Assembly (NCBI GenBank): GCA_963770895.1
Contig: CAVYRF010000002.1
Location: forward strand, 2,336,001-2,400,000
Direction: 5' to 3'
DNA from: an uncultured Acidobacteriota bacterium
GTDB lineage: Bacteria > Acidobacteriota > Thermoanaerobaculia > Multivoradales > UBA5704
Length of the DNA stretch: 64,000 nucleotides
The notes beneath the pieces are model-generated. The model searched no databases. It worked only from the letters and a program-made list of their open reading frames with translations, and was not told the DNA's origin. This document shows, one piece after another, positions 59,976 through 60,824 of this stretch. Within the stretch, counting starts at the first letter, position 1, and each line of letters begins with the position of its first letter. The translations under genes and the position numbers were made by a program.

Positions 59976-60458
59976 TTATGCCTGCGGCGGCGGGATTGGG
60001 GTGGTGGTGACCTTTTCGCTGTTGATTCCAACCTTGACGAACTTGCCGATCGACGGCACCCGGAAGATGTACTGCGGCTCCTCGGTGGCAGGGTGCGTGA
60101 CCTGCCAGCGCACGGTCGTCGCGGTGATGTCGCCGATGTAGCCGGCCTGGTTCTTGATCGCTGCCGCACGGATGATGCCGAAACGCAGCGGCAGCGGGAT
60201 CGGATCTGACTCCAGGAAGATGTCGTGCACCAGCTGCGGAGCGGTGAATTGAAAGTTCTTGCTGTACAGGAACACGGTTTCGGCCCGCCGCGGCGGGTCC
60301 GCCGGGATGCCGTACACCAGCCGCCAGTCGTAGGTGTCCGCGCCCTGCACCCAGGGCGAGTCGGCCTCCAGAAACACCGCGCTGGGATAGGCACCTTGGA
60401 CGATGCGGGTGCCGTTGTTGAGCACCACGAAAAACGGATCGACGATCTGCTCGCTCAT
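59976..60458 (-). CDS. Hypothetical beta-rich protein (160 aa)
   Basis: Non-shadow composition, C/G-ending codons, AAGGA upstream. No family recognised. Confidence 0.7.
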   Translation of the reverse strand: MSEQIVDPFFVVLNNGTRIVQGAYPSAVFLEADSPWVQGADTYDWRLVYGIPADPPRRAETVFLYSKNFQFTAPQLVHDIFLESDPIPLPLRFGIIRAAAIKNQAGYIGDITATTVRWQVTHPATEEPQYIFRVPSIGKFVKVGINSEKVTTTPIPPPQA

Positions 60459-60482
60459 CCTTGCCAGTTCCTTCTGCCGGCA

Positions 60483-60506
60483 GGGCGCCCCTCCGTGGGG
60501 ACGCCT
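60483..60506 (-). other. Stem-loop between the precursor peptide gene and the 160-aa gene
   Basis: Minus strand GGCGTCCC-CACGGA-GGGGCGCC (one G-U pair), a few nt after the peptide stop. Confidence 0.55.
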
Positions 60507-60512
60507 CGCTTG

Positions 60513-60671
60513 CTAGCGTTTGGGTGCAACCGGCGGCGCGCACTCGGGGCAGGTGTAAAACGCCGGCACCGAGAAATGGCCTCCCAGGACGTTGCCCAGG
60601 CTGCCATCCTGGAGCGCGGCGATCGTTTCAGCGTGCAGCGAAAGCTTCAGGTACGAGGCGTTCTTTTTCAT
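60513..60671 (-). CDS. Putative RiPP precursor peptide with double-glycine leader (52 aa; not in ORF track)
   Basis: Hand translation MKKNASYLKLSLHAETIAALQDGSLGNVLGG|HFSVPAFYTCPECAPPVAPKR*; strong RBS GAAAGGGAG 8 nt upstream of the ATG. Confidence 0.75.
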   Translation of the reverse strand: MKKNASYLKLSLHAETIAALQDGSLGNVLGGHFSVPAFYTCPECAPPVAPKR

Positions 60672-60824
60672 GAGTTGTTCTCCCTTTCAGGCTTGTCCTA
60701 CAAGAGAAGGTGTGGGCCGAACCCGAAGGCGGGACCCCGCCAAGCCGAGACCGGACCTTGCGGATGAGACGCTGGCGGGGCTGGGGGCGGCCAGGGGGCT
60801 TGGGGTTGGCGGTATGATGCGCCG

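What the first reader, a model, noticed from the sequence alone, without database searches (positions are those of the whole stretch)
60513..60671. Unannotated double-glycine RiPP-like precursor with a CxxC core and no modifying enzymes in the window
Seen: a 52-codon minus-strand ORF below the track cut-off, with a strong RBS (GAAAGGGAG-8 nt-ATG), encoding MKKNASYLKLSLHAETIAALQDGSLGNVLGG|HFSVPAFYTCPECAPPVAPKR, followed at once by a stem-loop. Established: a KLxLxxET(I/L)xxL segment plus L-x-x-V-x-GG is a common leader architecture of lanthipeptide-like and other RiPP precursors cut by C39 peptidase transporters; hairpins after precursor genes stabilise the precursor mRNA. Inference: the 21-aa core (S, T, two Cys as CPEC, aromatic F/Y/H, Pro-rich tail) may be modified in trans, because no LanB/LanM, YcaO, radical-SAM or PCAT gene is in the window. 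It could mark an undescribed orphan RiPP or metal-binding peptide system.
Basis: partly seen in the sequence, partly recalled or inferred. Interest (0 to 1): 0.78.

Follow-up and report, generated by a model that had tools for sequence, protein, structure and literature searches.

The report
Stand-alone lanthipeptide-type precursor peptide gene
This small gene is real and conserved, and it encodes a leader-plus-core peptide of a known lanthipeptide precursor family that lies far from the enzymes likely to modify it, so it is ordinary in kind and unusual only in its genomic arrangement.

Summary
The 52-codon minus-strand ORF at 60513-60671, its RBS and the hairpin after it are all present as described. 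The gene is real. Four of 9 same-genus genomes carry orthologues. Over 12 distinct coding sequences, dN/dS is 0.41 in the leader and 0.03 in the first 16 core codons.

The leader passes NCBIfam NF038153, "class I lanthipeptide" (28.6 bits, cut-off 22). NCBI already gives that name to two relatives, one of them in a cluster at 90% identity with an orthologue.

The gene is not a lone oddity. This 8.16-Mb Thermoanaerobaculia genome holds 90 reading frames with the same leader type, against 0 in a reversed-sequence control. It holds only one full-length LanB, paired with a LanC. That LanB is found in 10 of 10 genomes of the genus. In one congener the pair has a precursor with this leader type close by.

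The core belongs to a soil-metagenome family with a conserved (S/T)CPEC motif, and its Ser+Thr count tracks its Cys count. No member I examined lies next to a modifying enzyme.

My best reading is a class I lanthipeptide precursor modified in trans. This is inferred and not shown. It is a new member of a known kind.

The parts
60513..60671 (-). Precursor peptide gene, 52 aa plus stop. Leader is residues 1-31 and ends in Gly-Gly. Core is residues 32-52, HFSVPAFYTCPECAPPVAPKR.
   Evidence: ORF and translation. NF038153 match over residues 1-31 at 28.6 bits, cut-off 22. Orthologues in 4 of 9 congeners. dN/dS 0.41 in the leader and 0.11 in the core.
60606..60647 (-). Leader recognition segment K-L-S-L-H-A-E-T-I-A-A-L-Q-D (residues 9-22). 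It is of the LxLx(K/R)x5L type, but Ala stands at the K/R position.
   Evidence: K9, L10, S11, L12, E15, T16, L20 and Q21 are invariant in the 5-sequence alignment. The motif is described in PMC7268733.
60531..60578 (-). Conserved core block H-F-S-V-P-A-F-Y-T-C-P-E-C-A-P-P. The proposed rings are Ser34 to Cys41 and Thr40 to Cys44 (core positions 3 to 10 and 9 to 13).
   Evidence: H32, S34, P36, A37, F38, T40, C41, P42, E43, C44, A45 and P46 are invariant. dN/dS is 0.03 at pS 0.515. The ring assignment is inference from the Ser/Thr and Cys counts.
60672..60745 (-). 5' leader region with the RBS (GGGAG, 8 nt before the ATG) and a pyrimidine tract (CTTCTCTT). About 70 nt here travel with the gene in orthologues that lie at other genomic sites.
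   Evidence: Alignments. A possible stem pairing the pyrimidine tract with the RBS is weak: -3.83 kcal/mol, 2 of 9 pairs with changes on both sides.
60475..60500 (-). G+C-rich hairpin between the precursor gene and the next ORF.
   Evidence: z = -1.88, 9 of 200 shuffles as good, no T run. Not called by the terminator scan.
59976..60458 (-). 160-aa ORF of unknown family directly downstream. It is probably part of the same insertion between the ErpA-like and HAD genes. It is not a conserved partner of the peptide.
   Evidence: No Pfam or NCBIfam family. Found in 0 of 9 congeners and in 1 of 40 relatives, at 41% identity. Not found in any of the 35 loci that hold related peptides. The atlas search was uninformative.

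Best explanation
The ORF encodes a class I lanthipeptide-type precursor (LanA) that stands alone in the genome. The 31-residue leader (MKK..KLSLHAETIAAL..LGG) would be bound by the genome's single full-length LanB dehydratase. LanB would dehydrate Ser34 and Thr40. A LanC-type cyclase would then add Cys41 and Cys44 to give two overlapping thioether rings (core 3 to 10 and 9 to 13). A C39 peptidase-ABC exporter encoded elsewhere would cut after Gly-Gly and export a 21-residue product with a proline-rich tail.

Shown here: the gene is real and its core is under strong purifying selection. The leader belongs to the NF038153 family. The genome has 90 frames with this leader type and one complete LanB/LanC pair. 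That pair has a precursor with this leader type close by in a congener.

Inferred: that LanB and LanC act on this peptide, the ring pattern, the cleavage site, export, and any activity of the product.
For: 1. The leader matches NF038153 'class I lanthipeptide' above its cut-off (28.6 bits against 22). NCBI gives that name to HLX06237.1, which shares a 90%-identity cluster with the G003 orthologue P0002, and to the more distant (S/T)CPEC relative HEY0781594.1 (P0009).

2. Orthologues occur in 4 of 9 congeners, with H32, S34, P36-F38 and T40-P46 invariant. Over 12 distinct coding sequences dN/dS is 0.41 in the leader, 0.11 in the core and 0.03 in the first 16 core codons, at pS 0.515.

3. A leader HMM built from this genome finds 90 frames at E <= 1e-3 among 108,811 frames. 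A reversed-sequence control gives 0 (best E 0.3). Of the 90, 87 have at least 2 Cys in a tail of median 23 residues.

4. There is one full-length LanB (1177 aa; Lant_dehydr_N 550 bits and Lant_dehydr_C 236 bits), transcribed divergently from a LanC-like gene. A LanB scoring at least 498 bits is present in 9 of the 10 genomes of the genus.

5. In congener G002 the syntenic locus reads AroC, precursor, RNase II-like, LanC, LanB. Its precursor carries the same leader type (52.9 bits to my HMM; 29.7 bits to NF038153).

6. Five frames with this leader type lie within 320 bp of stand-alone LanC-like genes, yet none of the 90 lies within 10 kb of a LanB. If those five are lanthipeptide precursors, the dehydratase already has to work in trans.

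7. In 45 distinct cores of the wider (S/T)CPEC family, the residue before CPEC is Ser or Thr in 45 of 45. Up to the end of CPEC, Ser+Thr equals Cys in 36 of 45 and is at least equal in 44 of 45. Sub-families with 2, 3 and 4 Cys have 2, 3 and 4 Ser/Thr.

8. An LxLxKx5L leader ending in Gly-Gly, with C39 proteases in the clusters, is described for class I LanAs (PMC7268733, passages).
Against: - Nothing here shows expression, dehydration or cyclisation. No RNA run was available.
- No member of the (S/T)CPEC family lies next to a LanB, LanC or C39 gene in 35 loci (294,661 bases), nor among 10 neighbouring ORFs scanned with Pfam. The link to LanB/LanC therefore rests on the leader alone.
- G002 has the LanB/LanC pair but gave no match at all to this peptide, so the pair does not predict the peptide.
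- The genome also holds 4 large LanM-length proteins with LanC-like domains and 9 stand-alone LanC-like genes, any of which might be the true partner.
- Ala stands at the K/R position of the leader motif.
- The proposed Ser34 to Cys41 ring spans 8 residues, which is large.
- The Ser/Thr = Cys count comes from related sequences, so the 45 cores are not independent. My split of leader from core was by pattern and went wrong for at least 1 of the 45.
Confidence: 0.6

Rival explanations
1. The peptide is exported after double-glycine cleavage with no enzymatic modification, like a class II bacteriocin or a signalling peptide. The CPEC pair would form a disulfide or bind a metal, perhaps together with the His at core position 1.
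For: No modifying enzyme lies beside any family member in 35 loci or among 10 neighbouring ORFs. The CxxC spacing resembles a metal or redox knuckle (recalled, not tested). His32 is invariant in the 5 close orthologues. C39-type genes are present in the genome.
Against: The leader meets a model specific to class I lanthipeptides. Ser/Thr directly before CPEC is invariant (45 of 45), and the Ser+Thr count follows the Cys count; a disulfide or metal site would not require either. The His is not kept in the wider family: cores begin FS, FAS, NFS or RNT.
Confidence: 0.15
2. It is a RiPP precursor, but it is matured by another enzyme class that recognises the same leader type. Candidates are one of the LanM-length proteins, a radical-SAM/SPASM enzyme, or an oxidoreductase of the kind reported for Thermoanaerobaculia.
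For: The genome has 4 LanC-domain proteins in frames of 1029-1129 aa, 5 SPASM genes and 1 YcaO gene. A GMC-family oxidoreductase that makes thiazoles in lanthipeptide-type precursors was reported from Thermoanaerobaculia (PMC13083261, section 9 read). One metagenome locus (L088) carries the same core behind a different leader, so the core is not tied to one recognition system.
Against: The window peptide matched only NF038153 at E <= 1 in NCBIfam. By comparing the SPASM coordinates by eye with the frames listed, I found only about 2 of the 90 frames within 10 kb of a SPASM gene; no script counted this. The reported thiazole reaction was at a Gly-Cys motif, which this core lacks.
Confidence: 0.17
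3. The gene is a relic: a relocated precursor copy that is no longer expressed or processed.
For: It lies in a lineage-specific insertion between the ErpA-like and HAD genes.
Against: The start codon, RBS and frame are intact. About 70 nt of upstream sequence are conserved with orthologues at other sites. The core is under strong purifying selection.
Confidence: 0.03

Closest known systems
Class I lanthipeptide precursors with LxLxKx5L / Gly-Gly leaders (NCBIfam NF038153 lant_leader_L1a; Bacteroidetes family I 17, which includes pinensin, per PMC7268733)
   Same: Same leader architecture, scoring above the model's cut-off. The leader ends in Gly-Gly and is followed by a short core holding Ser, Thr and Cys. 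C39 peptidase genes are present in the genome.
   Different: The gene is 2.1 Mb from LanB and 311 kb from any LanC-like gene. Ala stands at the K/R position. The organism is an acidobacterium (Thermoanaerobaculia, per record titles), not a Bacteroidetes. The link of pinensin to this leader is taken from the paper's passages and was not tested here.
Prochlorosins (class II; one ProcM with many Nif11-leader precursors, many encoded far from the enzyme)
   Same: Many precursors with a conserved leader and varied cores are scattered over the genome: 90 frames, with 0 within 10 kb of LanB. That prochlorosin genes lie far from their LanM is stated in PMC7268733.
   Different: The enzymes here would be class I (separate LanB and LanC) rather than a LanM. 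The leader is short and not of the Nif11 type. There are 9 further stand-alone LanC-like genes. Promiscuity of the LanB is not shown.
Nisin-type lipid II-binding motif SxxxCTP(G/S)C of class I precursors (as quoted in PMC7268733)
   Same: An N-terminal Ser followed by a Thr/Cys/Pro/x/Cys block, giving two rings near the N-terminus.
   Different: The order is T-C-P-E-C and not C-T-P-G-C. The rings would therefore overlap rather than follow one another, and the Ser to Cys span is 8 residues rather than 5. This is a resemblance only; no binding was tested.
Class II bacteriocin or signalling peptides with double-glycine leaders
   Same: A Gly-Gly site and a short cationic C-terminal end. No modifying enzyme lies beside the gene.
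   Different: The leader meets a lanthipeptide-specific model. Ser/Thr and Cys counts co-vary.

Membership tests
NF038153 lant_leader_L1a (class I lanthipeptide leader) | Score at or above the curated cut-off of 22 bits over the 32-position leader model | tested here: met
   28.6 bits, E 1.2e-6, residues 1-31 on model positions 1-32. The six-frame search of the genome gave 28.5 bits.
Class I lanthipeptide precursor (LanA) | Core contains Ser/Thr and Cys in numbers and spacing that allow (methyl)lanthionine rings | tested here: met
   The core has Ser, Thr and 2 Cys. In the family Ser+Thr equals Cys in 36 of 45 cores and is at least equal in 44 of 45.
Class I lanthipeptide precursor (LanA) | Full-length LanB dehydratase and LanC cyclase encoded in the same genome | tested here: met
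   LanB of 1177 aa with both domains, and an adjacent LanC-like gene of 536 aa.
Class I lanthipeptide precursor (LanA) | Precursor gene lies in one cluster with lanB and lanC | tested here: not met
   2.1 Mb from LanB and 311 kb from the nearest LanC-like gene. No LanB or LanC in 35 loci holding relatives. A different precursor with this leader type does lie close to LanB/LanC in G002.
Class I lanthipeptide precursor (LanA) | Dehydration and thioether rings are shown in the product | not testable with these tools
   Needs mass spectrometry after co-expression or from a culture.
LxLxKx5L / Gly-Gly leader type (PMC7268733) | L-x-L-x-K-x5-L motif and a Gly-Gly end | tested here: inconclusive
   The sequence is L10-S-L12-H-A14-ETIAA-L20, with Ala where K/R is expected, and it ends in G30-G31. 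Most paralogues have Arg at that position.
Double-glycine peptides cut by C39 peptidase-ABC exporters | A Gly-Gly (or Gly-Ala) site after the leader and a C39 transporter in the genome | tested here: met
   GG at residues 30-31 is invariant in 5 orthologues. There are 9 C39 hits, the best at 121 bits in a 788-aa frame. None lies within 10 kb of any of the 90 frames; only the top 3 of the 9 C39 hits were used for that count. Cleavage is not shown.

The most novel reading that the evidence does not exclude
This genus runs a class I counterpart of the prochlorosin system. One conserved LanB, with a set of LanC cyclases, would mature some 90 dispersed precursors that share a leader. Within that pool, the (S/T)CPEC(A/N/P)P peptides form a separate family conserved across Acidobacteriota, always encoded away from enzymes and with a fixed two-ring pharmacophore. 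The core is strongly conserved (dN/dS 0.03) and occurs behind two different leader types, which points to one specific molecular target rather than a diversified library.
Probability: 0.35. Interest if true: 0.65.

Novelty: new member of a known kind. Interest (0 to 1): 0.42.

Why it matters
Taken alone, the gene is a precursor that a standard pipeline would name "class I lanthipeptide".

The setting is the useful part. About 90 frames share the leader while the genome has one complete LanB. A core family conserved in soil metagenomes is never seen beside an enzyme. Cluster-based mining tools look only near lanB or lanC, so they would miss nearly all of these precursors.

If the LanB really serves them in trans, it would be a broad-substrate class I dehydratase of interest for peptide engineering. 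The strongly conserved TCPEC core would then be a candidate for a defined bioactivity.

Tried and rejected
- Expression: the search for sequencing runs listed 6 holders, none on record as RNA. I did not lay reads. No RNA holder listed.

- The 160-aa ORF as a partner or immunity gene: rejected as a conserved partner. It is in 0 of 9 congeners, and in 1 of 40 relatives with no leader peptide upstream. It is absent from 35 loci holding related peptides. It has no Pfam or NCBIfam family, and the atlas search gave only unnamed clusters.

- Mobile-element signature around the insertion: no convincing flanking direct or inverted repeats.

- Hairpin as a terminator or attenuator: present, but z is only -1.88, there is no T run, and the scan did not call it.

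- RBS-sequestering stem in the conserved 5' region: the consensus fold is weak, at -3.83 kcal/mol with little covariation. I keep it as a lead only.

- L069 (a Rhodobacterales record): a chance 16-residue match opposite the start of another gene. L090-L092 hold the words inside a longer frame with no leader. None of these four counts as family, though all four were among the 35 loci.

- Literature: no held paper has TCPEC, YTCPEC, TCPECAPP, NF038153 or lant_leader_L1a in a RiPP context (the 13 listed hits are unrelated by title). Searches for Thermoanaerobaculia with lanthipeptide (1 paper), Angelobacter with lanthipeptide (1 review, listing only) and Acidobacteria with dispersed or orphan precursors (listings only) found no description of this family. 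Supplements were closed and may hold precursor lists.

- I did not run a complex prediction of LanB with the leader, because the tool's own guidance rates enzyme-substrate pairs as rarely informative.

Full report
**The observation**

GAAAGGGAG lies 8 nt before the ATG. Twelve nucleotides after the stop codon there is an 8-bp G+C-rich stem with a 6-nt loop. The 66-nt intergenic stretch folds at -27.7 kcal/mol, but z is only -1.88 and 9 of 200 shuffles fold at least as well. There is no T run, and the terminator scan did not call it. So the hairpin exists but carries little weight.

The window is G000:C2:2336001-2400000 of an 8.16-Mb assembly in 3 contigs with 70.7% G+C. Whole-genome searches place every hit to LanB-N (2), LanC-like (14), C39 (9), SPASM (5) and YcaO (1) outside the window. 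I did not search for generic radical-SAM domains.

**Is it a real gene?**

The peptide query found full-length matches in 4 of 9 same-genus genomes, at 59-71% identity. In the other 31 relatives it found only weak matches to the leader. The 5-sequence alignment keeps M1-K3, K9-L12, E15, T16, L20, Q21, L25, G30, G31 and almost the whole core: H32, S34, P36-F38 and T40-P46.

With 7 further distinct orthologous coding sequences from soil metagenomes there are 12 in all. Pooled pairwise Nei-Gojobori values are:

| Region | dN/dS |
|---|---|
| Leader | 0.41 |
| Core | 0.11 |
| First 16 core codons | 0.03 (synonymous difference 0.515) |

The pairs are not independent, and one row began at an upstream Val. 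The frame is therefore under purifying selection, strongest in the core.

About 70 nt upstream of the ATG are also conserved between orthologues.

**Location**

The orthologues are not syntenic. In the 5 congeners I checked, the ErpA-like and HAD genes that flank the window's peptide lie 257-563 bp apart with no peptide between them. The same aligned end-points are 965 bp apart in the window.

In those genomes the peptide lies elsewhere. In G003 it sits upstream of an NRPS gene. In G009 it sits between an S1-domain gene and an M28 peptidase gene.

In the window the peptide gene therefore sits in a lineage-specific insertion, together with a 160-aa ORF of no known family. That ORF is found in 0 of 9 congeners and in 1 of 40 relatives, where no leader peptide precedes it. 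No flanking repeats mark a mobile element.

**What family?**

In NCBIfam the peptide matches only NF038153, lant_leader_L1a "class I lanthipeptide", at 28.6 bits against a cut-off of 22. Pfam gives nothing.

NCBI names two relatives "class I lanthipeptide": HLX06237.1, which is in the 90%-identity cluster of the G003 orthologue, and HEY0781594.1, a more distant (S/T)CPEC relative. A further relative, in Candidatus Angelobacter, is named hypothetical. Record titles place the genus in Thermoanaerobaculia, Acidobacteriota.

Walker et al. 2020 (PMC7268733, passages read) describe class I precursors of Bacteroidetes with an LxLxKx5L leader that often ends in Gly-Gly, with C39 proteases in their clusters. 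The window's leader fits, except that Ala stands at the K/R position.

**The genome-wide picture**

NF038153 gave 43 six-frame matches at E <= 10 in this genome, 3 of them above the cut-off. I built an HMM from 37 of these, dropping the 6 weakest rows. I searched all 108,811 stop-to-stop frames of at least 30 aa.

- 90 frames reach E <= 1e-3. All 37 seeds are among them, by construction; 53 are new.
- Reversed sequences give 0 at that level, with a best E of 0.3.
- 87 of the 90 have at least 2 Cys in a tail of median 23 residues.
- 0 lie within 10 kb of either LanB hit.
- 7 lie within 10 kb of a LanC-like gene.
- 0 lie within 10 kb of the three best C39 hits.

The genome has one full-length LanB of 1177 aa with both domains, transcribed divergently from a 536-aa LanC-like gene and set among housekeeping genes. 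A second protein has only the LanB N-domain and lies beside an NRPS gene.

All 10 genomes of the genus have a Lant_dehydr_N match, and 9 of them have one of at least 498 bits. They carry 1-22 NF038153 matches each at E <= 0.1.

In G002 the syntenic locus reads AroC, precursor, RNase II-like, LanC, LanB. Its precursor has the same leader type.

In this genome, five frames with this leader type lie directly beside stand-alone LanC-like genes with no LanB near. One such locus has two LanC genes, a MacB-type permease and an integrase.

**The core family**

A profile of the 5 orthologues found 40 proteins at E <= 1e-3 among 1.84 billion representatives. Of the 28 I fetched, 14 carry CPEC.

A metagenome scan returned 24 loci. 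Many hold tandem arrays of 2-4 such genes. One locus (L088) has the same core behind a different leader. L090-L092 are unrelated.

In 45 distinct cores:

- the residue before CPEC is Ser or Thr in all 45;
- up to the end of CPEC, Ser+Thr equals Cys in 36;
- Ser+Thr is at least equal to Cys in 44;
- sub-families with 2, 3 and 4 Cys have 2, 3 and 4 Ser/Thr.

My pattern-based split of leader from core failed on 2 peptides and mis-split 1. This pairing is what thioether rings would need.

No relative of this genome's LanB, LanB-N, five LanC-like, two LanM-length or two C39 proteins was found by tblastn (E <= 1e-4) in 35 loci totalling 294,661 bases. Ten neighbouring ORFs scanned with Pfam were all unrelated to RiPP maturation. 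Many of these loci are short.

**Mechanism**

My best reading (0.6) is a class I precursor modified in trans. LanB would dehydrate Ser34 and Thr40. A LanC would close Ser34-Cys41 and Thr40-Cys44. A C39 exporter would cut after Gly31. All these steps are inferred.

The rivals are:

- an unmodified double-glycine peptide with a disulfide or metal site (0.15);
- maturation by another enzyme class (0.17), for which the thiazole-forming oxidoreductase of Thermoanaerobaculia is a published precedent at Gly-Cys motifs (PMC13083261, section 9);
- a silent relic (0.03).

**Novelty**

The gene is a new member of a known kind. I found no paper on the (S/T)CPEC core or on this scale of dispersed class I precursors (mostly listings; supplements closed).

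It is probably one of the 90 frames, but I did not check that.

Noticed in passing
G000:C2:4508468-4510498 (L064:8411-11188, + strand): A 925-aa protein has only the LanB N-terminal (glutamylation) domain and no elimination domain. It is transcribed divergently from a large NRPS gene. From memory, this build resembles the small LanB-like peptide aminoacyl-tRNA ligases.
   Followed up: partly
G000:C2:2709098-2709298, C1:1579909-1580106, C2:5020190-5020498, C1:652844-653143: A sub-family of the leader (MKKQ..KKLRI.xETLLPL) carries cores with few or no Cys. Two of these genes lie within 150 bp of stand-alone LanC-like genes. It is unclear what a cyclase would do with a Cys-free core.
   Followed up: partly
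L088:1005-1510 (metagenome locus): Two tandem peptides carry the same FSCPP(K/R)YTCPECA(P/S)P core behind a quite different leader (..L.D(L/V)RVESFATT..). The core motif is thus shared between two leader types.
   Followed up: no
window 60672-60745 (- strand) and orthologous loci: About 70 nt upstream of the ATG are conserved among orthologues that lie at different genomic sites. The stretch includes a CUCUCUCUU tract that could pair with the AGGAGA ribosome-binding site. The consensus fold is weak.
   Followed up: partly
L045/L068 (G009:C49, about 60 nt downstream of the orthologue): A second frame ends ..EVLGGRWSFPVHFSCPECPAP with no recognisable start codon or full leader. It may be a decayed tandem copy.
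   Followed up: no
L101 (G000:C2:3314000-3329000): Precursor, two LanC-like genes and a MacB/FtsX-type permease lie next to a phage-type integrase, in DNA of lower G+C (66.8% against 70.7%). This looks like an acquired island.
   Followed up: partly
window 59976-60458 (- strand): A 160-aa ORF of no known family is inserted together with the peptide gene between the ErpA-like and HAD genes. Its one distant relative is in G013, at 41% identity with an in-frame TAG.
   Followed up: partly
L086:4012-4980 and L087:2435-3403: An alpha/beta-hydrolase with weak S33/S9 peptidase-family matches lies directly after a four-gene array of (S/T)CPEC precursors in two related metagenome contigs. It could be a processing peptidase or a coincidence.
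   Followed up: no
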